DNA from: Escherichia virus TH27
Strand: one strand, 5' to 3'
Length of the DNA: 52,344 nt
Sequence record: MT446401.1
The first letter of the stretch is position 1. Each line of letters starts with the position of its first letter. Of the stretch, positions 1 through 52,344 are shown piece by piece. The notes beneath the pieces were generated by a model that searched no databases, had not been told where the DNA came from, and worked only from the letters and a program-made list of their open reading frames with translations. Both the position numbers and the translations under genes were made by a program.

Positions 1-402
1 CGTTTGCAATGATGTTTTCAATTGTTGCGAATTGAGCAATGATTCATTGATGGGGGGAATGATGGGGTGAGATTCGATCCCATGATCGCCTGGTGGGATT
101 TTCCCGCCACACATTTCATCTATGTACGCGTTATGGTTTGTTCAACTTTGTAGATATTTGGCAATGTCTACGCCATTCACGCGGAATTACGCGCTGGTTA
201 CAAAATAAATCCCTTATATAACAACCTTTTATCTATATTATTATTATTATTATTATTATATGTTATTCCGTAACCAAGATTAATTGGGATATTGATGATA
301 TTTTTTTTGATATTGCGCGGCGCATGAAAATTGGCATAAAGAGATGGATATGCAAGTAGGGCAAAAAAGTGATGTACATCGTTCTACGGCAATAACATCC
401 TT
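1..402. repeat. Left copy of 402-bp direct terminal repeat (matches 51943..52344)
   Basis: Sequence 1..402 reads the same as 51943..52344 by visual comparison; non-coding, contains TTGCAATGAT-like repeats. Confidence 0.85.
238..258. repeat. (TTA)7 microsatellite
   Basis: ttattattattattattatta read directly; a similar (TTA)5 occurs at 31596..31610 with a similar flank. Confidence 0.9.
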
Positions 403-473: not shown

Positions 474-501
474 TTGCAATGGTTGCATTTGGTGATATGA
501 T
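474..501 (+). promoter_or_regulatory. Putative sigma70-type promoter for the left early operon
   Basis: TTGCAA, 16-nt spacer, TG-a-TATGAT extended -10, about 30 nt upstream of the first gene. Confidence 0.35.
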
Positions 502-533: not shown

Positions 534-1046
534 ATGACTCAAGATGAAAACAAACCATCACTCGGTGACATCGTTCGCTACATGGTACTGGAAGCGCTGG
601 CGTCTGATGACGGTACATATGCTGTACCAGTCAGGATGATTCACAAGAAGCTTGGGGGCTATACTGATAGCGAAACCTGTGACTCAGATTTCAAATCAGG
701 CGGAAAGCATGTAGTGACTAAGCTCAAGGCGTCTTATGTATCAAACACTGCTAGCCGTATGCAGGAAGTTAAGGACGCAGACAAGCGAGCCAGGTTCTCA
801 ATGGTTGAAATGGATTTCGATGGTACTCCTGGTGTGTACTGCGCAAAAATCACAATGGTAGATGGAGCGGTAAAGGTTGGCTCCCGCTCAAAGACTAACA
901 ACCAGGTTGCAGAGAAGGCTGTGAGCGACTTCAAATCTCGCATACTCAAGCTGATGCCATCCGTGACCGAGTTCGAAGGCGATGAAATTACAGGAGCCAT
1001 CAAGGCTATCAAAATGTACCAAGACATGATTAAGGAGGCTAACTAA
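534..1046 (+). CDS. Hypothetical early protein (170 aa), possible winged-helix N-terminus
   Basis: ORF with RBS-like GAGGTAG upstream; first gene of left operon. Confidence 0.7.
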   Translation: MTQDENKPSLGDIVRYMVLEALASDDGTYAVPVRMIHKKLGGYTDSETCDSDFKSGGKHVVTKLKASYVSNTASRMQEVKDADKRARFSMVEMDFDGTPGVYCAKITMVDGAVKVGSRSKTNNQVAEKAVSDFKSRILKLMPSVTEFEGDEITGAIKAIKMYQDMIKEAN

Positions 1047-1579
1047 TGTTTGATTTCAACGATCCCAATCTGACCGATGACGAGATCGCAAAGGTCGCCA
1101 GTGAAAGTAACTTGACTCCACTGCGCGTAGCAATCAACGCGAACGGATACCGCCAATCATCCAGGTACTGGCGCTCCTTGAAAGAGCTTTCCTGCGTCAA
1201 TCTTGGCGAGGAGTGTAAGTCGGTGGCTTTAGCTATTCATCGGCAGGCAAAAAACGGAAAAGGCGTTACTGGAATCCGTTCGACATACGAAGCTATCAGG
1301 AAAGTAAAGCCATTTATTGGCCGATTTGGGTTAATGTCTGATCTTAAAGAGAGCATTCTACCTTCACTACAGGACGCAGGAATCATCTGCCGAATTGGAG
1401 ATAAGGTTTATATTCATCCATGGCTTGTGGGTGTTCCACACGTTGAGTTTAAGGCTTGGTTGAGTCAGCAAAATAAAGGCGACACCAAAAAGCAAACCAT
1501 CCATGGCTATGATGCCGATGAGGTGGAGAAGGCCATCCAGTTCTACCGGAAAGCGAAATCTCTCCTGAACGGTGAATAG
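1046..1579 (+). CDS. Truncated paralog (177 aa) of the 527-aa protein at 46851..48434: N-terminal about 45 aa plus C-terminal winged-helix-like segment, central region absent
   Basis: Shares MFDFN..LPPLRVAINANGYRQS and GKNGKGV.G.RS.YEA.RKVKPF...GDK.YI.P.L.G with the 527-aa protein; ATGA coupling to upstream gene. Confidence 0.8.
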   Translation: MFDFNDPNLTDDEIAKVASESNLTPLRVAINANGYRQSSRYWRSLKELSCVNLGEECKSVALAIHRQAKNGKGVTGIRSTYEAIRKVKPFIGRFGLMSDLKESILPSLQDAGIICRIGDKVYIHPWLVGVPHVEFKAWLSQQNKGDTKKQTIHGYDADEVEKAIQFYRKAKSLLNGE

Positions 1580-1619
1580 CACGAATTGCTAAACAATAAA
1601 TCGGGTAGTCAGCTATGAT
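1577..1619 (+). promoter_or_regulatory. Palindromic box TAGCACGAATTGCTAAA plus -10-like TATGAT in hairpin
   Basis: Box 1577..1593 overlaps stop TAG; 20-nt gap; hexamer 1614..1619 inside inverted repeat gggta/taccc. Confidence 0.5.
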
Positions 1620-1643: not shown

Positions 1644-1862
1644 ATGATTATGGATACTGGAATTTTACGCATTGACGATGTTCACTTTGACCAGGCTGAG
1701 GTCAGCGTCACGGTGCAAACCGTTCGCGGTAATGTTGTAAACCTGGACTTCGATCCTGACGATTACGGCGACTGTCAAACTCTGATGCAATACTCACCGG
1801 AGCAGGCCCGCAAATTAGCGGCGGCATTAATCCTGGCAGCGGAAGAGGCCGACAAGCAATGA
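1644..1862 (+). CDS. Small protein (72 aa), paralog of 2426..2656
   Basis: Shared DF.P..Y.D...Y.P.QAR.LA segment with 2426..2656; preceded by box/-10 module. Confidence 0.7.
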   Translation: MIMDTGILRIDDVHFDQAEVSVTVQTVRGNVVNLDFDPDDYGDCQTLMQYSPEQARKLAAALILAAEEADKQ

Positions 1863-2425: not shown

Positions 2426-2656
2426 ATGAGCACGACCGCCGTACGCATCGCTGACGACTCAGGCGAACAGGCCGAGGTAATGGTAAAGAAACTGCATAGC
2501 AGCGCCCAGGGCTTTGCATTCAAGGTGTGCGTTGACTTCAATCCTGAAGAGTATGTTGACGCATCAAGTTACATGGTGTACACGCCAGACCAGGCTCGAC
2601 AGTTGGCTGTGTATCTGATGGAAGCGGCCCACCGCGCTGAGAAGGGGGTTTTATGA
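2426..2656 (+). CDS. Small protein (76 aa), paralog of 1644..1862
   Basis: RBS AAGGGG upstream; sequence similarity to 1644..1862 product. Confidence 0.7.
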   Translation: MSTTAVRIADDSGEQAEVMVKKLHSSAQGFAFKVCVDFNPEEYVDASSYMVYTPDQARQLAVYLMEAAHRAEKGVL

Positions 2657-31361: not shown

Positions 31362-31903
31362 TTTTCAATCTCCATTAGTGATCGCGTGATTGCGATGCGT
31401 GTATTTTGCACACTTTAATCTGATTGTCTTTAGCTATTCGTGCTTTTTGGTGTCAAATATGCAAATGCAACGATATACGCGTAACCGATGTAACTCGATG
31501 TATACAATCTAATCCTCGGAAAATTGTATACGCCCTGTTACGCCGATTTACGCTATAGTTACATTAAAATATCTATATATATCAACCTTTTACTCTTATT
31601 ATTATTATTATATATATTACTGTGTATATCGTGTAACTACTTCTATAGAGTGTTCCGATTATAAATTTCTAATATGGTTATTTATACAGTATTTAATCAC
31701 AAATACACCAATGCACCCTCAGCGAAAAATGATATACACGATATACACACTGTTTACATTAAGCTATAGCTGGGCTGGATAGCCATTTTATGTAACTAAC
31801 GCCATTGCATACACGCAATTACAAATATCTACACGTAACCACTTGACTAACGCAACCAAGCGTGTATAGTTAGCCACATCAACAACGAACGAGGATTAAA
31901 GAG
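31362..31903. other. 540-bp AT-rich intergenic region with TATAC(A/G)C-type repeats between divergent operons
   Basis: No ORF; repeated atacac/atacgc units, tandem gatatacac x2 at 31730..31749, (TTA)5 at 31596..31610. Confidence 0.7.
31843..31870 (+). promoter_or_regulatory. sigma70-type promoter (TTGACT-16-TATAGT)
   Basis: TTGACT 31843..31848, 16-nt spacer, TATAGT 31865..31870. Confidence 0.55.
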
Positions 31904-36928: not shown

Positions 36929-37873
36929 TTATGAATACTTATCTATCAGATCCTGAGGCGTATATAGCTTTCTTTCAAGGCCCATTCTGAAGTTCCCTCC
37001 GTTCGGCACAACCACTTTTAAATCTCGCTCGTCAGCCATGTAAAGCGCTCGCAAATCATCTGCCAGACACGCTACTCGTAACTCCCGATCGCCACGATAC
37101 CGATAAGCAACAATCTCAAGATTCTCAGGGGAGAAAGTCACCCACACTTCCTGATTGGTTGCCATCTTCACGCGGTAGCCATCAATAAGATCGCTTGTCA
37201 TATATATGGCCGCATCGGCCTCGCCACTCCCAAGCTTAACAACTGAGCCGCGAGAATAATCGCGAGCAAGGAAAGTGTATTCGCCATTATCATAAGCAAA
37301 CATGACGTTACACATATCCTCATCAATTCCGTCAGGGTGGACCATGTAGCACGGCAGTGCGTGTATTAGCTCCTCAGTGCCATTCTGGCGCATTTTTACG
37401 CCAACGTCATATGAATCTTCGGTTAAGCACTCATACACGCTTAAATCGGTGTTCTCGCGCTTTTCTGTGCGCTCCATTACTGCTACGCACGACTCATGAT
37501 CCGCCATCTTGCCAAGTCCTTTTTCCGGTACGCGCGACGCCCTGCGGTAAGCTTTAGCTTTGTAATCCTGCGGAACTTTGCCAAGGAATCGACCAAGGAT
37601 GTTAATCACTTCACTGTAAGGCTCACCAGTCAGCTTCATCATCCAGCCAACGCCCTTGTCGTTCCCACAACCGTTACATATAGCGCCACCATCACCTGGG
37701 GAGTCGAGTTCGTCAGTCCAACGGAATCGGTCCTTGCCGCCACAGTAAGGGCATGGCTGGTGCTTTTTATTGAACACGCCGGACTGCAATCCACAAATGG
37801 ATTGTAACGCCTCACGCCATAATCCTTTCATATACGGCAGTACTTCTTCTTTCTGGTAATTAGGTTCGTTCAC
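36929..37873 (-). CDS. DNA primase-like protein (314 aa) with N-terminal zinc ribbon
   Basis: CPYCGG...(19)...CNGCG zinc-binding motif; position in replication module beside helicase. Confidence 0.6.
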   Translation of the reverse strand: MNEPNYQKEEVLPYMKGLWREALQSICGLQSGVFNKKHQPCPYCGGKDRFRWTDELDSPGDGGAICNGCGNDKGVGWMMKLTGEPYSEVINILGRFLGKVPQDYKAKAYRRASRVPEKGLGKMADHESCVAVMERTEKRENTDLSVYECLTEDSYDVGVKMRQNGTEELIHALPCYMVHPDGIDEDMCNVMFAYDNGEYTFLARDYSRGSVVKLGSGEADAAIYMTSDLIDGYRVKMATNQEVWVTFSPENLEIVAYRYRGDRELRVACLADDLRALYMADERDLKVVVPNGGNFRMGLERKLYTPQDLIDKYS

Positions 37874-44398: not shown

Positions 44399-44881
44399 AT
44401 GAATTGGAGTGATGTATTTAATTATAAAGATGGAGTTCTTTATCATGCCGCAAATCCATGCAGAAGGCATGATGTAAATGCTGGTGACGTAGCGGGCAGG
44501 GTTGCTGCTAACGGCTATCACTACGTTGTGCACAAGAACAAGTTCTACAAGCGCTCCAGGGTAGTTTGGGAAATGTTTAATGGTGAAATACCTGATGGTT
44601 TTGTGATAGATCATGTAAATCATGACACTGAGTGTGATCTCATAGAGAATCTAGAGTGCAAACCAAGGCGTGATAACATGGTTAACGTTAAGTTAAGAAG
44701 TGATAGCAGTTCTGGGGTTTCAGGGGTTAGCATGAAGAAAAATGGAAAGTGGAGAGCGTACATAACAATAATGGGAAAACAAAGGTGTAAAGTTTTTGAT
44801 AAATTTGAAGATGCGTGTTCTCAGAGGATAGAGTGGTTGGTTTCCAATGGCTTTCATGAAAATCATGGTGGGGTTTTCTAA
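44399..44881 (+). CDS. HNH-AP2 homing endonuclease (160 aa)
   Basis: DHVNHD...N HNH motif and C-terminal AP2-like segment; RBS CAGGAGG; paralog of 33031 and 49326 genes. Confidence 0.75.
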   Translation: MNWSDVFNYKDGVLYHAANPCRRHDVNAGDVAGRVAANGYHYVVHKNKFYKRSRVVWEMFNGEIPDGFVIDHVNHDTECDLIENLECKPRRDNMVNVKLRSDSSSGVSGVSMKKNGKWRAYITIMGKQRCKVFDKFEDACSQRIEWLVSNGFHENHGGVF

Positions 44882-44883
44882 AA

Positions 44884-44927
44884 TAGCACGAATTGCCTAA
44901 CACTATAGCGTCGAAAGGCGCTATATT
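44884..44927 (+). promoter_or_regulatory. Palindromic box (TAGCACGAATTGCCTAA) plus -10-like TATATT in hairpin
   Basis: Box 44884..44900; inverted repeat ctatagcg/cgctatat. Confidence 0.45.
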
Positions 44928-44954
44928 CATATCTCACTTACAGAGGATTCAATC

Positions 44955-45128
44955 ATGGTTAAATTATTTTGCGTTAAGAACACATCTAAAACCCTTCCTT
45001 TCACTGTTAACAATCCGTACAGCGCCGAGTACCAGGGCGACGGGAACTACAAGATTTACGTCGACGATATGACGTGGATTTTTGCGCCTCTAGATGGCGC
45101 TTTGGTGGAATTTATTAAAGCAGACTAA
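44955..45128 (+). CDS. Small protein (57 aa)
   Basis: RBS AGAGGA; below ORF-track cutoff; followed by terminator. Confidence 0.5.
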   Translation: MVKLFCVKNTSKTLPFTVNNPYSAEYQGDGNYKIYVDDMTWIFAPLDGALVEFIKAD

Positions 45129-45153
45129 GTTATAAAAAACATGTAGTTGCAAA

Positions 45154-45180
45154 GAGGTGGCCTTTAAGGTCGCCTTTTTT
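45154..45180 (+). terminator. Rho-independent terminator
   Basis: aggtggcc-tttaa-ggtcgcct (two G-U) plus T6. Confidence 0.55.
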
Positions 45181-45203
45181 CGTTTATGTCAAAGGTTAAT
45201 ATC

Positions 45204-45212
45204 TGGTATTAT
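45204..45212 (+). promoter_or_regulatory. Extended -10 (TGGTATTAT) for lysis cassette
   Basis: TGnTATTAT about 30 nt upstream of holin start. Confidence 0.4.
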
Positions 45213-45242
45213 TTAAACAAATAAACTTGACGAGGCCGCAAA

Positions 45243-45458
45243 ATGAAACATTTCTATGACGCAGCCGCCTTATCCGGAAGCGGGGTAGCTATGGGTGGCG
45301 GTTTATCTGACAACACAATAATCGGAATTATCGGCTTAGTGGTAGCCGTGTGCTTTGGTATCTTTGGCGCATGGCTTCGCTGGCGTGATAGCCAGGCTCT
45401 ACATCGTGCGCTGGAGGCTGGCGATATTCGGGAAGCCATGAAAATCAGGAGTAAATAA
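45243..45458 (+). CDS. Holin / pinholin (71 aa)
   Basis: Small membrane protein immediately upstream of SAR-type endolysin; RBS GAGG. Confidence 0.65.
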   Translation: MKHFYDAAALSGSGVAMGGGLSDNTIIGIIGLVVAVCFGIFGAWLRWRDSQALHRALEAGDIREAMKIRSK

Positions 45459-45941
45459 ATGAGCATAAAGAATAAGGTTATTGGCTCCGCTGTTGCTGGG
45501 GCTTTGGCAATATCAGTTCCGTTTCTGAATGAATATGAGGGGGTTGAGTACAGGCCATACAAGGATGTTGCAGGGGTGTGGACGGTTTGCACTGGTATCA
45601 CTGGCTCAGATGTTGTTCTCGGTAAGGTTTACACTCAGCGAGAATGTGACGCCCTCCTTGTGAAGCATTTATCAATTCACCAAAAGGCCGTAGATTCTGC
45701 GCTAAAGGTGGATGTTCCCGTAAGTACCAGGGCAGCGCTATACTCTCTTAGCTTTAACATTGGCGCAAATGCAATGAGAAAATCAACTGTTATCAGGCGC
45801 ATGAATAGTGGCGACCTAAAGGGTGGGTGCAATGCATTCTCCATGTGGAATAAGATTACAGTTAACGGAAAGAAAGTGGTCAGCAAGGGCTTGGTTAACA
45901 GGCGCAACGGGGAGATTGAATTATGTTTAAAGGAATTGTGA
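45459..45941 (+). CDS. SAR-type endolysin, lysozyme (160 aa)
   Basis: N-terminal weakly hydrophobic signal-anchor VIGSAVAGALAISVPF then E...D...T catalytic region (EGVEYRPYKDVAGVWTVCTG). Confidence 0.8.
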   Translation: MSIKNKVIGSAVAGALAISVPFLNEYEGVEYRPYKDVAGVWTVCTGITGSDVVLGKVYTQRECDALLVKHLSIHQKAVDSALKVDVPVSTRAALYSLSFNIGANAMRKSTVIRRMNSGDLKGGCNAFSMWNKITVNGKKVVSKGLVNRRNGEIELCLKEL

Positions 45942-46309
45942 TTGCAGCGGTGATTATGCTTTCTGGTTGCTCTGCTACACCGGCTCTGACTGGTTTAATT
46001 GGCAGTAAGCCAGAAATTAGCGCGCAGGCTGGGGCCGAGAACGTGAAGCAAACGGTAGGCGTTACCGGAAAGGTGGATAAGTCAAACGACAACGACACCA
46101 CTATAAAAGATTCAAAGGTAGGAAAGGTTGATACGTCAAACGGGAAGTCTGTCAGCACCTCAAGCATCAAGGCCGACACCATCATCGCTGATAAGATTGA
46201 GATCAGGAACGATGACTCGAAAGGTAATCTGATTGCCGGACTGGTATTCCTGTTCATCGGCATTGTGATGATTGCTCTTTCAATCTGGCTGGAACGACGC
46301 AAAAAATAA
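45923..46309 (+). CDS. Unimolecular spanin: lipoprotein with C-terminal TM helix (128 aa)
   Basis: Lipobox LSGC after signal peptide; C-terminal TM LIAGLVFLFIGIVMIALSIWL; overlaps endolysin 3' end. Confidence 0.75.
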   Translation: MFKGIVIAAVIMLSGCSATPALTGLIGSKPEISAQAGAENVKQTVGVTGKVDKSNDNDTTIKDSKVGKVDTSNGKSVSTSSIKADTIIADKIEIRNDDSKGNLIAGLVFLFIGIVMIALSIWLERRKK

Positions 46310-46850: not shown

Positions 46851-48434
46851 TTACCCCAGCAATCTCGGATTAATGTAAATTTTATCACCAATCAGGCACG
46901 TATAGTTTTTCTCATCCAGCATAGGGATCAGGTGATCTTTGATGCGAGTCATTACACCAGCCTGGCCCTCGAATGGCTTAACCTTACGCGCCGCTTCATA
47001 TAGGGATCGGACACCTACAACGCCTTTCCCGTTCTTTCCTTGCTTTATCAGAATGTCAATCAGCTTGTTCATCTCCGCATGGTCGCCAGCGTGACCAGCA
47101 GCGTTGGCAGATGACAGATAAGTTTTACTGAGTTCCTGGAACATGATTACAGCTTCCTGCATTGTGTCAAGCTCAATCTCCCTGGACTTCTGCGGGCTTC
47201 CGCCATTTGGATTAAACCAGTTACGCACAGTGTGAAGAACTGCCGCGATCCTGATGGCCTGCTTATCGAACTTACCAAGCGCGCCGCGCAGCATTGTGTG
47301 TGAATACTTCCCGCCGTCCGCAAGGTGAGGCTCCATATCCTGACGCGCACGGTTGAGATATTTCATCGCCGACGTGCTAACTGTCAGATTCACTTCGTGC
47401 TCGCTCATGATTTCATGGACCAGCCGGAAGTAGTCCGCCTTGAGTCCGCCATCAATCGGCTCGTATGTTGATTCGCCTTTTTCGTCAACGAATACACGCT
47501 CGCCAAGGAATGACTTCTCACGCACAAGCAAGAAACGTTCTGACACACCGATACCACGCGCACCAGCATTCATGATCGCGTTGATTGTTTCATCCTGTGC
47601 AATTACAGAGATGCAACCCATCGCAATAAAGCTCATGTTATTGTCTGCGTTCGCACGCGCGATAGATACGTTACCAGCATCCCATGCTTTCAGCACAAGC
47701 TCGCTGTTCGTTTTCTTTGAGCCGTCACCATAGGTCATGCCTAAAAGTGAGTTCACGCTCGTTGCTTCATCCGAGATCACAGAGAAATTACCCTGGCGGT
47801 TGTTGATTCTCGCAAGACCTTCCGGCGTGGTGTCGGATACGGGGAATACGATGTCACAAAGGCGTTCCAGTTTTTCTTCCAGCTCTTCTTTTTCCTCAAA
47901 CAGCGCCGCCATGTCAGATGGTGATTTCTCCTGCTTCATCTCCTTGGATAGAGCGGAAAGCTTAGCCATAATCTTCTTGCGGTCGCGCTTTCTGATCTCG
48001 TTGAGTCGTTCAGTCTCTGCGATCATCGGGGCCAGCGAAAGTGAGTTAATGGCTGATTTACCCGTCGATGGCGGCTGACTGGTTACGACGTAGAGAGCGG
48101 TCGGCTGTTGTGTTCCGTGATACTCAACAGTAAAGCGGCCAAGCATGGCGGCTGATATGCATCCAAGGAAGTGCATATATGCGGACGACTCAGGGAACTG
48201 TACCGAACGAGCAGCATTGCTTGACAGCTTACCAACGACATCATAATCATTGCCAAGTGAGATAACCGGATACTTGTCACCGCCTGAGTCGATTTCTGTT
48301 GGAGCTTTCCAGAACGACTGGCTTTGCCTGTACCCGTTGGCGTTGATGGCAACGCGCAGAGGAGGCAGGTTGTCGGCAGCAGCTACAGCCATCACCTGAT
48401 CGATAGACAATTTATCTTCGTTAAAATCAAACAT
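46851..48434 (-). CDS. P-loop protein with C-terminal winged-helix-like domain (527 aa), possible replication/primase-associated protein; full-length paralog of 1046..1579
   Basis: Start 48434 chosen (RBS AAGGAG; MFDFN matches paralog start); Walker A-like PPSTGKS; function uncertain. Confidence 0.75.
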   Translation of the reverse strand: MFDFNEDKLSIDQVMAVAAADNLPPLRVAINANGYRQSQSFWKAPTEIDSGGDKYPVISLGNDYDVVGKLSSNAARSVQFPESSAYMHFLGCISAAMLGRFTVEYHGTQQPTALYVVTSQPPSTGKSAINSLSLAPMIAETERLNEIRKRDRKKIMAKLSALSKEMKQEKSPSDMAALFEEKEELEEKLERLCDIVFPVSDTTPEGLARINNRQGNFSVISDEATSVNSLLGMTYGDGSKKTNSELVLKAWDAGNVSIARANADNNMSFIAMGCISVIAQDETINAIMNAGARGIGVSERFLLVREKSFLGERVFVDEKGESTYEPIDGGLKADYFRLVHEIMSEHEVNLTVSTSAMKYLNRARQDMEPHLADGGKYSHTMLRGALGKFDKQAIRIAAVLHTVRNWFNPNGGSPQKSREIELDTMQEAVIMFQELSKTYLSSANAAGHAGDHAEMNKLIDILIKQGKNGKGVVGVRSLYEAARKVKPFEGQAGVMTRIKDHLIPMLDEKNYTCLIGDKIYINPRLLG

Positions 48435-48896: not shown

Positions 48897-48939
48897 AATA
48901 TACAGGAAAAGCCCCGAAGGGCTTTAGCAATTAGTGCTA
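48897..48939 (-). promoter_or_regulatory. Palindromic box plus -10-like TATATT (- strand) with CATCAAAACGAA leader
   Basis: Box 48923..48939 supplies stop TAG of the 50-aa gene; 20-nt gap; hexamer complement 48897..48902. Confidence 0.5.
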
Positions 48940-49089
48940 TTTCTTTGCTGCTTTTGCAATTGCCTTTTGCGTGATGTTGAAGCTCTCGATCAAATCTTCC
49001 TTGAAATAATCGCCAACGGGCCAACCCTTACCGCTGTACTTAGCTATGGTATCAAGATCGTAGTAGTTCAAATCGGATGGCTTGAGCAT
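48937..49089 (-). CDS. Small protein (50 aa)
   Basis: ATG right after upstream TAA; RBS AGGTGA; stop TAG is first triplet of the box; below ORF-track cutoff. Confidence 0.5.
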   Translation of the reverse strand: MLKPSDLNYYDLDTIAKYSGKGWPVGDYFKEDLIESFNITQKAIAKAAKK

Positions 49090-49329
49090 TTATTTCACCT
49101 CGTCAAACGTTGCGATTCCAGGGATAAACATTCCGACCTTCCAGCCTGCGATAGCAATCCAGCCAGAATCGTGCTTGTGCGGTCGCTCAGCGCCATTAAT
49201 CACCCACTCGTTCGGGATTGTCTTACCGTTAATGATTAGCGGATCAGCGTCGTATACAGAGCCTTTTACGAATGGCGTTAAGACCTTCTTGTCGGTGCTG
49301 CTGATGCAATTTGTGCATATCACTTTCAT
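49090..49329 (-). CDS. Hypothetical protein (79 aa)
   Basis: ATGA coupling with upstream HNH gene. Confidence 0.65.
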   Translation of the reverse strand: MKVICTNCISSTDKKVLTPFVKGSVYDADPLIINGKTIPNEWVINGAERPHKHDSGWIAIAGWKVGMFIPGIATFDEVK

Positions 49330-49844
49330 AATTTACCGCCATGATTTTCGTTAAAGTTAAATATTTTATTTGCCTCATTCCTTGCGGCAACCGCATCATC
49401 AATGTTCTTAAATGTTCCAAGTTTGCGATTTACTCCATTACTAACAACTTGAGCAACAAAAACCTCATCTCTTTTACACCAATGTATTCCAGTGTGCCCG
49501 CTTTTATTGTCACTCCTGATTTTCTGGTTTTTTGCGTTACCTGATTTATCTGTCATTGATAGATTCTCTATCCTGTTATCATCCCTGATCTTGTTATTAT
49601 GGTCTATAACCTTGGTAACATCCGGTTGTCCTTTGAATATAAACCATACAATCCTATGAGCCGTGAATCTCTCGCCCTTGAATCCCACAAGCCTATATCC
49701 AGTGGCTTTACTTATGCAGCCACACTCCCTTCCTGTTCTATCTATTTGCTTTCTTGATGGTGGTGTTTTCTTCCAATAAAGCCTGCCGTCAATGTATTCA
49801 ATATAATCAACTATATCCTCCGGTATCTGCTTTGCTACTTTCAT
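49326..49844 (-). CDS. HNH-AP2 homing endonuclease (172 aa)
   Basis: YIDGRLYW..., HRIVW, IDHNNKIRDDNRIENL motifs; AT-rich; paralog of 33031 and 44399 genes. Confidence 0.75.
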   Translation of the reverse strand: MKVAKQIPEDIVDYIEYIDGRLYWKKTPPSRKQIDRTGRECGCISKATGYRLVGFKGERFTAHRIVWFIFKGQPDVTKVIDHNNKIRDDNRIENLSMTDKSGNAKNQKIRSDNKSGHTGIHWCKRDEVFVAQVVSNGVNRKLGTFKNIDDAVAARNEANKIFNFNENHGGKL

Positions 49845-50297: not shown

Positions 50298-50328
50298 TTT
50301 TACTTCCTCTTAGGTTTTGATGTGGTTT

Positions 50329-50424
50329 TCGTTGCTCCGGCCTACGTTTGCAACTTCCTGCCTTGTGGGTTTGCCACATCGTTTTGAAACGTCTTTCGTT
50401 GCTCCGGCCTACGTTTGCAACTTC
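50329..50424 (-). repeat. Two copies of a 29-bp direct repeat (50329..50357 and 50396..50424) in the leader of gene 50073..50297
   Basis: tcgttgctccggcctacgtttgcaacttc occurs twice, 67 bp apart; each copy has gttgc/gcaac inverted repeat and TTGCAA. Confidence 0.8.
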
Positions 50425-51869: not shown

Positions 51870-51897
51870 TTCGTTCGATTTATGGATTGTTGCAGCT

Positions 51898-51990
51898 ATT
51901 GCAATGATTCACTTCACTATTGCACATATAGCAATATTGCATCGTTTGCAATGATGTTTTCAATTGTTGCGAATTGAGCAATGATTCATT
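51898..51990. repeat. Cluster of TTGCAATGAT-like direct repeats spanning the start of the terminal repeat
   Basis: ttgcaatgattc, ttgcacatatagcaatattgcat, ttgcaatgatg, gagcaatgattc within about 90 bp; non-coding. Confidence 0.6.
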
Positions 51991-52344
51991 GATGGGGGGA
52001 ATGATGGGGTGAGATTCGATCCCATGATCGCCTGGTGGGATTTTCCCGCCACACATTTCATCTATGTACGCGTTATGGTTTGTTCAACTTTGTAGATATT
52101 TGGCAATGTCTACGCCATTCACGCGGAATTACGCGCTGGTTACAAAATAAATCCCTTATATAACAACCTTTTATCTATATTATTATTATTATTATTATTA
52201 TATGTTATTCCGTAACCAAGATTAATTGGGATATTGATGATATTTTTTTTGATATTGCGCGGCGCATGAAAATTGGCATAAAGAGATGGATATGCAAGTA
52301 GGGCAAAAAAGTGATGTACATCGTTCTACGGCAATAACATCCTT
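51943..52344. repeat. Right copy of 402-bp direct terminal repeat (matches 1..402)
   Basis: Visual comparison with 1..402. Confidence 0.85.

What the first reader, a model, noticed from the sequence alone, without database searches (positions are those of the whole stretch)
1046..1579. Truncated paralog of the 527-aa P-loop protein encoded at the opposite genome end
The 177-aa protein at 1046..1579 matches the N-terminus (MFDFN...LPPLRVAINANGYRQS) and the C-terminal winged-helix-like region (GKNGKGV.G.RS.YEA.RKVKPF...GDK.YI.P.L.G) of the 527-aa protein at 46851..48434 on the - strand, but lacks the roughly 350-aa central region that holds the Walker A-like PPSTGKS. The DNA copies have diverged at synonymous positions, so the pair is old rather than a recent duplication. 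A short paralog that keeps the terminal interaction and DNA-binding parts but loses the catalytic core could act as a regulator, competitor or loader of its full-length relative.
Basis: seen in the sequence. Interest (0 to 1): 0.65.

Follow-up and report, generated by a model that had tools for sequence, protein, structure and literature searches.

The report
Core-less early copy of phage helicase
A T1-like coliphage carries, as its second early gene, an old copy of its own MCM-like replication helicase that has lost the whole ATPase motor and keeps only the two end pieces; the gene is real and conserved, and its role is untested, but it most likely acts on whatever the helicase's ends bind.

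Summary
ORF 1046..1579 (177 aa) matches the first 48 residues (56% identity, E 8e-17) and the last 64 residues (55%, E 8e-23) of the 527-aa protein at 46851..48434(-). It lacks that protein's entire AAA+ core, about 395-415 aa.

The short protein is not a pseudogene. It belongs to PHROG 7327, with more than 120 intact 90%-identity clusters. Pooled pN/pS is 0.37 (p=6e-23), and AlphaFold2 gives a confident compact fold (pLDDT 86.7).

The copy is old: synonymous sites between it and the helicase are saturated in all ten genomes tested. It derives from the Rogunavirus/Nouzillyvirus/Braunvirinae-type helicase.

The two genes are not at opposite ends. The window is a circular assembly with a 402-bp overlap, so they lie 4.55 kb apart in divergent early operons.

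The helicase is almost invariant, whereas the short gene exists as many ancient, recombining alleles. It is absent from T1 and Hanrivervirus and carries a stop codon in one lineage, so it is accessory.

The likeliest mechanism, which is inferred, is trans-acting competition or modulation at the partner of the helicase's terminal module.

The parts
1046..1579 (+). Short paralogue, 177 aa (PHROG 7327): helicase lacking its AAA+ core
   Evidence: ORF. Full-length hit to phrog_7327, E 2.7e-64. More than 120 intact homologous clusters. AF2 pLDDT 86.7, pTM 0.72.
1046..1189 (+). N-terminal element (aa 1-48; three short helices; motif PLRVAINANGYRQS..W) shared with the helicase N-terminus
   Evidence: BLASTP 56% identity, E 8e-17. 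pN/pS 0.21. Residues conserved in both families.
1208..1432 (+). Winged-helix domain (aa 55-129) homologous to the helicase C-terminus
1433..1507 (+). Variable, low-confidence linker (aa 130-154) with indels between alleles
   Evidence: Alignment A1. pLDDT below 50 at aa 144-150. pN/pS 0.73, not different from neutral.
1508..1576 (+). C-terminal helix private to the short family (YDADEVEKAIQFYRKAKSLLNGE), absent from the helicase
   Evidence: Nearly invariant in A1. pN/pS 0.18 and low pS. DNA conserved with relatives from about 1499 onward.
1032..1038 (+). Ribosome-binding site AAGGAGG. The short gene's ATG overlaps the stop of the upstream gene by 1 nt (TAATG)
   Evidence: Read from the sequence.
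534..1046 (+). Upstream, translationally coupled gene, DUF7174 (170 aa). It is the first gene of the operon and occupies 'slot 1', which is conserved across Drexlerviridae
   Evidence: Pfam PF23796, E 1.2e-46. Same gene order in all fetched relatives. Distant homologues: T1 gp77 (with a weak Pfam hit E 2e-4) and grams_10, judged only from its C-terminal motif.
474..501 (+). Sigma-70-type promoter-like site (TTGCAA-16 nt-TATGAT, TG-extended) in front of the DUF7174/short operon. It is not of the ATAGCAC class
   Evidence: Consensus scan and sequence. It is a consensus match only, not shown to be active.
1576..1593 (+). First copy of the family-wide promoter-associated repeat ATAGCACN3TTGYTAAA. 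It overlaps the end of the short gene and closes the two-gene unit
   Evidence: 20 copies in the window against 0.33 expected. Present in T1 and all loci. Described for phage TLS (PMC11447400).
46851..48434 (-). Full-length helicase, 527 aa (DUF3987, SF6/MCM-like AAA+)
48291..48434 (-). Helicase N-terminal element (aa 1-48), counterpart of short aa 1-48
47145..48194 (-). DUF3987 AAA+ core (aa 81-430) that the short paralogue lacks. Walker A PPSTGKS is at 48054-48074 and DEA at 47763-47771
   Evidence: Pfam envelope. Motif positions. Invariant Q120 P121 P122 G125 K126 S127 and E223 in A2.
46854..47084 (-). Helicase C-terminal winged helix (aa 451-527), counterpart of short aa 55-129
48923..48940 (-). 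ATAGCAC-type promoter element upstream of the 117-aa gene and the helicase in the leftward unit
51943..52344 (.). Exact repeat of window 1-402. It is the assembly overlap that makes the two paralogues look as if they sit at opposite ends

Best explanation
Shown here. The 177-aa protein is a functional, catalytically dead derivative of the phage's own MCM-like (DUF3987, superfamily 6) replicative helicase. An ancient copy lost the complete AAA+ motor. It kept the N-terminal three-helix element and the C-terminal winged helix, and it gained a private C-terminal helix. It is the second gene of the first rightward transcription unit, next to the presumed pac region (a pac annotation exists only in the TR1 record). 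It has a strong ribosome-binding site and is translationally coupled to DUF7174. The helicase lies about 3.4 kb into the divergent leftward unit.

Inferred. The residues shared with the helicase have been kept by selection although synonymous sites are saturated. The short protein therefore most likely still binds the ligand of the helicase's terminal module. That ligand could be the AAA+ tier of the helicase itself, the separate primase, or DNA at the loading site. The short protein would act in trans as a competitor or modulator that tunes when or where the helicase is recruited or activated. By its position it is probably made early, ahead of the helicase. It is accessory, not an obligatory loader. 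I put confidence in the identity and evolutionary part at about 0.9; the figure below refers to the mechanism.
For: - Paralogy.
- Fold: the short protein is predicted as one compact unit, with pLDDT 90-96 over about aa 11-140 and pTM 0.72. Its fold matches ORC/Cdc6-type winged helices. The long protein has an MCM-like AAA+ fold with a C-terminal winged helix.
- Literature: DUF3987 proteins are SF6 helicases with a C-terminal wHTH (PMC4889955). A PriCT-DUF3987 protein is a proven 5'-3' helicase that binds its primase (PMC11724360). In archaeal MCM the C-terminal winged helix and its linker allosterically modulate ATPase and helicase activity (PMC4357721).
- Selection: pN/pS is 0.21 (N part), 0.32 (winged helix) and 0.18 (tail), and 0.37 overall with p=6e-23. 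Omega is 0.25-0.36 in the window's own allele lineage.
- Maintained similarity: in ten genomes, short-vs-helicase amino-acid identity is 56-79% (N part) and 31-70% (winged helix), while third-codon-position identity is only 29-48%.
- Expression signals and gene order are conserved in four genera.
Against: - No interaction or expression data exist.
- The helicase is almost invariant: 0 amino-acid changes in 527 codons at dS 0.09-0.39. The short gene exists as many ancient alleles exchanged even between genera. That is not what a dedicated partner of an invariant enzyme is expected to do.
- The gene is absent from T1 and Hanrivervirus and truncated by a stop codon in Veterinaerplatzvirus.
- Some alleles have lost the shared KG....R motif (e4/1c type, 31% identity to the helicase winged helix).
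- Packing of the N element against the winged helix rests on AF2 confidence only. I could not inspect coordinates.
Confidence: 0.35

Rival explanations
1. Host- or defence-directed mimic. The module copied from the helicase is used as an early accessory factor that binds a host protein. That protein could be a replisome component the helicase must recruit, or a host immune sensor or inhibitor that recognises the highly conserved helicase. The short protein would then act as a take-over factor or decoy, not as a regulator of the phage's own replication.
For: - The gene sits in 'slot 2' of the first early unit. This is a variable cargo slot: T1 has the unrelated gp76 there and Hanrivervirus 'grams' has an unrelated 296-aa protein, while slot 1 (DUF7174) is family-wide.
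- Alleles are ancient and shuffled. Short dS is 1-2.2 where the helicase dS is 0.24-0.39.
- Alleles transfer between genera: TH30 vs AHP42 gives short dS 0.18 but helicase dS 1.67. Near-identical genomes can carry unrelated alleles: AHP42 vs AKS96 gives helicase dS 0.02 but short dN 0.49.
- The gene is dispensable in some lineages.
- Surface charge varies strongly between alleles (pI 5.1-9.1).
- The helicase would make an attractive conserved target.
Against: - No similarity to anything characterised.
- No region shows pN/pS above 1.
- Allele shuffling may simply reflect a recombination hot spot next to the genome end. By analogy with T1, whose annotated 1-2800 repeat region covers the corresponding genes, the genes probably lie in the terminal redundancy.
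- No defence system is known to me that senses this helicase.
Confidence: 0.25
2. Independent sequence-specific DNA-binding regulator. The winged helix would bind DNA near pac, the origin or early promoters and control transcription, packaging or initiation, without reference to the helicase.
For: - The gene lies beside an intergenic region rich in TTGCAAT-type repeats (51886-51988/1-46, 467-506).
- The window allele is basic (pI 9.1).
- Basic residues K/R in KG....R......RK..PF are shared with the helicase.
Against: - Several alleles are acidic (pI 5.1-5.4) although they keep the fold.
- The presumed recognition helix (aa 96-110, DLKxxILPSLQDAGI) is acidic or neutral and conserved across alleles.
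- The abundant ATAGCAC repeat is family-wide and occurs in T1, which lacks the gene.
- No allele-specific iterons were found in or around the gene.
Confidence: 0.15
3. Obligatory helicase loader or assembly chaperone. The short protein would be needed to open or assemble the hexameric ring on DNA.
For: It shares exactly the non-catalytic ends of the helicase. It is probably produced early. No other loader candidate was found among the neighbouring genes I scanned.
Against: T1 and Hanrivervirus have homologous helicases (57% identity for T1; AAA+ core 61% for T1 and 78% for grams) but no short paralogue. An in-frame stop is tolerated in 12397II-type phages. The short gene has about 9-fold weaker constraint than the helicase.
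Confidence: 0.1
4. Non-functional remnant: a decaying pseudogene or an ORF kept only because it overlaps regulatory DNA.
For: Omega is higher than in neighbouring genes (0.25-0.36 against 0.04-0.05). The linker evolves neutrally. One lineage has a premature stop and degenerate motifs.
Against: - More than 120 intact full-length clusters of 164-192 aa.
- Pooled pN/pS 0.37, p=6e-23, with three separately constrained segments.
- Confident AF2 fold.
- Strong RBS and translational coupling conserved.
Confidence: 0.05

Closest known systems
DUF3987 (PF13148) superfamily-6, MCM-like replicative helicases of phages and mobile elements (Kazlauskas et al. 2016, PMC4889955; AgaPH, PMC11724360)
   Same: The long partner is a member. 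The short protein is homologous to that helicase's N-terminal element and C-terminal winged helix, and derives from the Rogunavirus/Nouzillyvirus/Braunvirinae-type helicase.
   Different: The short protein has no AAA+ domain, no Walker A or B motif and no Pfam DUF3987 hit. It cannot be a helicase. It adds a private C-terminal helix.
C-terminal winged-helix domains of MCM and of ORC/Cdc6 initiators
Core-deleted or truncated relatives of replication proteins that regulate the full-length protein. From my own knowledge and not tested here: Hda versus DnaA, papillomavirus E8^E2/E2-TR versus E2, short pi protein of plasmid R6K, Tn5 inhibitor protein
   Same: Same logic: a version that keeps interaction or binding parts and lacks the catalytic or activating part can compete with or modulate the full-length protein.
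   Different: Most viral and plasmid examples are made from the same gene by internal starts or splicing. Here it is a separate, anciently diverged gene in another operon, it is hypervariable, and it is dispensable in related phages.
PHROG 7327 / 'hypothetical protein' JK_46, AHP42_64, e41c_0064, bas03_0065
   Same: The window protein is a full-length member (E 2.7e-64).
   Different: The family is annotated only as unknown function. I found no paper describing its relation to the helicase.

Membership tests
DUF3987 / SF6 MCM-like helicase (long protein) | Pfam PF13148 hit above the gathering score | tested here: met
   134.8 bits against a cut-off of 27, aa 81-430.
DUF3987 / SF6 MCM-like helicase (long protein) | [quoted passage not shown] | tested here: met
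   PPSTGKS at 121-127 and DEA at 222-224. G125, K126, S127 and E223 are invariant in 47 homologues.
DUF3987 / SF6 MCM-like helicase (long protein) | MCM-like AAA+ fold followed by a C-terminal winged helix | tested here: met
DUF3987 / SF6 MCM-like helicase (long protein) | ATP-dependent DNA unwinding | not testable with these tools
   Shown only for a distant PriCT-DUF3987 protein (PMC11724360).
DUF3987 / SF6 helicase (short protein) | Possession of the AAA+ ATPase core | tested here: not met
   No Pfam hit at E<=1. Only aa 1-48 and 55-129 align with the helicase. Therefore it is a paralogue of the family but not a helicase.
PHROG 7327 (short protein) | Full-length profile match | tested here: met
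   E 2.7e-64, aa 1-177 against profile positions 1-179 of 179.
Winged-helix fold (short protein) | H1-b1-H2-H3-b2-b3 topology with structural neighbours that are winged helices | tested here: met
Sequence-specific DNA-binding winged-helix regulators or initiators | Conserved basic DNA-contact surface and cognate repeated sites | tested here: inconclusive
   pI of the N+WH module is 5.1-9.1 depending on the allele. No allele-linked repeats were found. The family-wide repeats also occur in phages lacking the gene.
Known helicase loaders (DnaC/DnaI, lambda P, T4 gp59, and similar) | Sequence-family membership | tested here: not met
   No Pfam, NCBIfam or PDB-sequence match.
Known anti-phage defence proteins | PADLOC model match | tested here: not met
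   0 families. Anti-defence protein libraries were not available.
Pseudogene | Neutral evolution (pN/pS about 1) and disrupted frames in relatives | tested here: not met
   pN/pS 0.37, p=6e-23. More than 120 intact clusters. The only exception seen is the stop codon in 12397II-type phages.

The most novel reading that the evidence does not exclude
The short protein is a free-standing 'terminal module' that controls an MCM-like helicase in trans, in either of two ways. It could dock on the AAA+ tier, primase or loading site as a phage counterpart of the winged-helix-mediated control of cellular MCM. Or it could serve as a decoy that shields the phage's most conserved replication protein from a host sensor or inhibitor. 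In the second case its many ancient alleles would be maintained by conflict rather than by drift.
Probability: 0.2. Interest if true: 0.7.

Novelty: new variant of a known kind. Interest (0 to 1): 0.45.

Why it matters
Replication of T1-like phages is poorly understood. They have no polymerase of their own, no known origin and no known loader (PMC11447400). Their DUF3987 helicase belongs to a large, barely studied MCM-like family spread through phages and mobile elements.

A natural, separately encoded copy of just the helicase's two ends is a ready-made probe for what those ends bind. If it modulates the helicase, it would be a simple bacterial-virus model for winged-helix control of MCM-type motors. 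If it targets the host, it would point to the helicase ends as a host-phage interface.

Practically, it also shows that PHROG 7327 and the many 'hypothetical proteins' at this position can be annotated as 'helicase N/C-terminal-domain paralogue (no ATPase)'.

Tried and rejected
- **Co-evolution of each short allele with its own helicase: rejected.** The helicase is 88-100% identical across phages whose short alleles are 38-91% identical.
- **Recent gene conversion between the long and short genes: rejected.** Third-codon-position identity is 29-48% in all ten genomes, including AKS96, whose short protein is 70-79% identical to its helicase.
- **Co-variation of DUF7174 and short alleles: rejected as strict linkage.** TH30 shares its DUF7174 allele with ESCO41 (92%) but its short allele with AHP42 (91%).
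- **The ATAGCACN3TTGYTAAA repeat as a target of the short protein: rejected.** The repeat is family-wide and present in T1, and it is already described for TLS.
- **T1 gp76 as a degenerate member: not supported.** Only MFNIKP and the RBS are shared with the T1 helicase, and hhalign gives 0.3% probability. 'grams' shows no such match.
- **DUF7174 related to the short protein or to any solved structure: no**.
- **Sequence searches of the PDB, NCBIfam and PADLOC for both proteins: nothing**.
- **Foldseek against viral models:** found only the short protein's own family and helicases.
- **Profile search of 1.84 billion representatives:** 50 hits, all short-family proteins, fragments or what appear to be T1-like-phage helicases. 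I found no wider family.
- **Scan of IMG/VR:** gave only 25 loci, mostly the same isolates.
- **A Biopython NJ tree timed out**. I replaced it with p-distance and nearest-neighbour analysis.

Full report
**What the window is**

The window is a T1-like coliphage genome (Drexlerviridae). Its closest DNA relatives are Nouzillyvirus phages 50EP, TH21, P817, TH30 and ESCO41. Bases 1-402 are repeated exactly at 51943-52344, so the sequence is a circular or terminally redundant assembly of 51,942 bp.

The two genes of the finding are therefore not at opposite ends. Their start codons are 4.55 kb apart across the junction. They lie in two divergent early units that flank the intergenic region next to the presumed pac site. 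That placement rests on a pac annotation in the TR1 record and on the T1 layout.

**Observation check**

ORF 1046..1579 (+) encodes 177 aa. ORF 46851..48434 (-) encodes 527 aa.

BLASTP aligns two segments:
- short 1-48 with long 1-48, at 56% identity and E 8e-17;
- short 66-129 with long 464-527, at 55% identity and E 8e-23.

Independent profile tests agree:
- The short protein hits the PHROG 'DNA helicase' profile at E 4.9e-21.
- The long protein hits the short family's PHROG (7327) at E 3e-55, over long 439-526 and profile positions 41-128.
- hhalign of the two family alignments gives 99.4% probability.

The deletion thus removes long residues from about 46 to about 440, which is the whole AAA+ module. 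Walker A (PPSTGKS, 121-127) and Walker B (DEA, 222-224) are in the missing part.

Codon-position identity between the copies is 58/71/44% (N part) and 61/75/42% (C part). This confirms old divergence under amino-acid constraint.

**What the long protein is**

It has Pfam DUF3987 over aa 81-430 (E 5.6e-39) and matches PHROG 2373 'DNA helicase'. It is the helicase found in T1 as gp9 (57% identity) and in several hundred records of the phage collection, nearly all phages of enterobacteria.

This agrees with the literature:
- DUF3987 proteins are divergent SF6 (MCM-like) helicases with a C-terminal wHTH (PMC4889955).
- A PriCT-DUF3987 protein is a proven 5'-3' helicase that binds its primase (PMC11724360).

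The window also has the T1-type separate primase (36944-37861, -), an SNF2-type helicase, Erf, RecE and Dam. T1-like phages are reported to have no DNA polymerase of their own (PMC11447400).

**What the short protein is**

It is a full-length member of PHROG 7327, annotated 'unknown function' (E 2.7e-64).

The large protein database holds more than 120 clusters at 90% identity, each 146-192 aa, spanning 44-90% identity to the window protein and mostly covering it fully. In 1.84 billion representatives the family profile finds only 50 proteins. About ten are full-length short clusters (164-185 aa). The rest are fragments and what appear to be T1-like-phage helicases. So this is a narrow, lineage-specific family.

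In the phage collection, 106 records carry a full-length copy. I saw it in Nouzillyvirus, Rogunavirus, Christensenvirus and Veterinaerplatzvirus.

The high confidence of the N-terminal helices suggests that they pack on the winged helix. If so, the protein would be one structural module cut out of the helicase. This is an inference, because I could not inspect coordinates.

**Is it functional?**

Yes, on evolutionary criteria.
- Against its closest relatives (L038, 90%; L041, 87%), omega is 0.36 and 0.29. For the same genomes DUF7174 gives 0.05 and the helicase 0.04.
- Pooled over four independent allele pairs, pN/pS is 0.37 (p=6e-23).
- By segment it is 0.21 in the N part, 0.44 in aa 43-72, 0.32 in the winged-helix core, 0.73 (not significant) in the linker, and 0.18 in the tail.

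The gene has an AAGGAGG ribosome-binding site. Its ATG overlaps the stop codon of the upstream DUF7174 gene (TAATG).

The pair is preceded by a TTGCAA-16-TATGAT promoter-like site. It is followed at 1576 by the first copy of the family-wide ATAGCACN3TTGYTAAA element. T1 has the same layout, with gp77, gp76 and then the element at 1450.

**Evolutionary behaviour**

This was the most informative result. The helicase is nearly frozen. Among Nouzillyvirus genomes there are 0 amino-acid changes in 527 codons at dS 0.09-0.39. Across genera, dN is 0.06 at saturated dS.

The short gene and DUF7174 are the most divergent block of the rightward early region. No blastn alignment covers about 264 to about 900-1500, while the flanks are 84-96% identical.

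For the same genome pairs, short-gene dS is 1-2.2. The alleles are therefore much older than the genomes that carry them. They also move:
- TH30 (Nouzillyvirus) and AHP42 (Rogunavirus) share a short allele (dS 0.18), while their helicases differ by dS 1.67.
- AHP42 and AKS96 have almost identical helicases (dS 0.02) but unrelated short alleles (dN 0.49).
- DUF7174 and short alleles assort independently.
- There is intragenic mosaicism: AHP42 vs e4/1c gives N-part pS 0.00 and WH pS 0.53.

By nearest neighbour, short proteins group with short proteins and helicases with helicases. Two sequences are exceptions. AKS96's short protein has helicases as its nearest neighbours in both parts. One helicase cluster (P0150) has a short protein as its nearest neighbour in the N part. 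Even AKS96 is saturated at synonymous sites against its own helicase, so I find no recent gene conversion.

The short protein's N and WH parts are closer to the Rogunavirus/Nouzillyvirus/Braunvirinae-type helicase (58-76% and 50-74%, leaving out the e4/1c-type WH allele at 30-32%) than to T1-type (27-41%, 26-36%) or Hanrivervirus-type helicases (45-52%, 32-42%). The copy therefore arose inside that lineage, after it split from the others. This matches the gene's taxonomic distribution.

**Accessory status**

T1 has no short paralogue. Its slot-2 gene, gp76, shares only MFNIKP and the RBS with the T1 helicase. Hanrivervirus 'grams' has an unrelated 296-aa gene in slot 2. The 12397II-type Veterinaerplatzvirus phages have an in-frame stop at codon 141, with the tail-coding DNA still readable behind it.

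Slot 1 (DUF7174) is family-wide, while slot 2 is a cargo slot. An obligatory loader role is therefore unlikely.

**Mechanism**

Three things are shown:
- The protein lacks every catalytic element.
- It retains, under selection, the fold and a set of residues shared with the helicase's ends: M1, F2, P25, V28, I30, N33-G34-Y35, S38, W42, and KG....R......RK..PF.G..G...LP.L...C...P.
- It is placed first in the early programme.

The rest is inferred. The short protein probably binds the ligand of the helicase's terminal module and acts in trans.

In archaeal MCM, the C-terminal winged helix, its linker and the first helix allosterically tune ATPase and helicase activity (PMC4357721). In DUF3987 proteins of other elements, the region N-terminal to the ATPase is where the primase attaches. 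So the candidate ligands are the helicase's own AAA+ tier, the separate primase, or DNA at the loading site.

I rate this modulator or competitor reading at about 0.35.

The allele dynamics, the cargo-slot position and the variable charge (pI 5.1-9.1, against 8.7-9.0 for the helicase module) keep a host- or defence-directed mimic alive at about 0.25. The shuffling could also be a by-product of a recombination hot spot next to the genome end. In T1 the corresponding genes lie inside the annotated 1-2800 repeat region, which I take to be the terminal redundancy.

An independent DNA-binding regulator is possible at about 0.15. It is weakened by the acidic alleles, by a conserved non-basic 'recognition' helix, and by the lack of allele-linked repeats.

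**Novelty**

I found no paper that mentions this relationship. Database records call the protein hypothetical. The principle of a core-less relative that keeps the binding parts is known from other replication and transposition systems; that comparison comes from my own knowledge. The particular form here appears undescribed: an ancient, separately encoded, hypervariable and dispensable N+WH copy of an MCM-like phage helicase. I therefore classify it as a new variant of a known kind, of moderate interest. The identity is solid and the function is open.

Noticed in passing
window 1-402 and 51943-52344: Exact 402-bp duplication of the start at the end of the window. This indicates an assembly overlap of a circularly permuted or terminally redundant genome, so the unique length is 51,942 bp.
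   Followed up: yes
window, 20 sites, e.g. 1576, 2343, 3658, 4912, 5797, 7115, 7744, 36860, 38412, 41003, 42317 (+); 48923, 50485, 51853 (-): The promoter-associated repeat ATAGCACN3TTGYTAAA occurs 20 times against 0.33 expected. It contains a TAGCA-N5-TGCTA palindrome over the -35 region. It is present in T1 and all fetched relatives, and is already described for phage TLS as a 21-nt repeat of unknown role (PMC11447400). The DUF7174/short operon is the only rightward early unit that starts from a different promoter type.
   Followed up: partly
window 51886-51988 (continuing into 1-46) and 467-506: A cluster of four 26-nt repeats rich in the palindromic core ATTGCAAT/TTGCAATGATTCA lies in the divergent intergenic region near the presumed pac site. 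A related copy overlies the DUF7174 promoter. The function is unknown (operators, pac or origin?). The region is 79-87% conserved across genera.
   Followed up: partly
window 179-258 (= 52121-52200) and 31540-31619: An 80-nt element ending in an (ATT)n microsatellite is present near the genome end, with a 74% identical copy in the middle of the genome.
   Followed up: no
L012 (phage T1) 1127-1453 vs 44517-46085(-): T1 gp76, which occupies the same second slot as the short paralogue, shares its first six residues (MFNIKP) and its TAAGGAG RBS with the T1 helicase gp9, but nothing else. This could be a vestige of the same kind of event or a shared translation-initiation element. It is not seen in Hanrivervirus 'grams'.
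   Followed up: partly
window 46851-48434(-) vs L001, L002, L004, L011: The helicase has no amino-acid change in 527 codons between the window and three Nouzillyvirus phages (50EP, TH21, TH30), and 99.8% identity to ESCO41. This holds despite 4-10% DNA divergence (dS 0.24-0.39), an unusually strong constraint for a phage gene.
   Followed up: yes
window 49326-49844(-): An HNH_3 endonuclease gene (Pfam E 3.4e-10) is an insertion relative to 50EP, TH21 and TH30, whose sequences are contiguous across this point. It is probably a mobile homing-type element in the leftward early operon.
   Followed up: partly
L009 (phage vB_EcoS-12397II) 10001-10540: The short paralogue has an in-frame stop at codon 141, with the conserved tail-coding sequence still readable behind it, and it also has degenerate core motifs. 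Forty-three records in the phage collection come from this same host strain (E. coli DSM 12242), and the three of them sampled matched the query identically, so the allele is probably shared by that group.
   Followed up: partly
window 1644-1862 and 2426-2656 (+): Two small early proteins (72 and 76 aa) both match phrog_13316 and end in similar helices. They are a nearby pair of paralogues of unknown function.
   Followed up: no
window 534-1046 (+) and relatives: DUF7174 (slot 1) exists as ancient alleles (33-92% identity) like the short gene. Within an allele lineage, however, it is strongly constrained (omega 0.04-0.05). It is found family-wide, including as distant homologues T1 gp77 and grams_10. 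Its function is unknown, and no relative has a solved structure.
   Followed up: partly
window 50314-50357 and 50381-50424: Two 44-nt direct repeats (89% identical), 67 nt apart, in the leftward early region.
   Followed up: no
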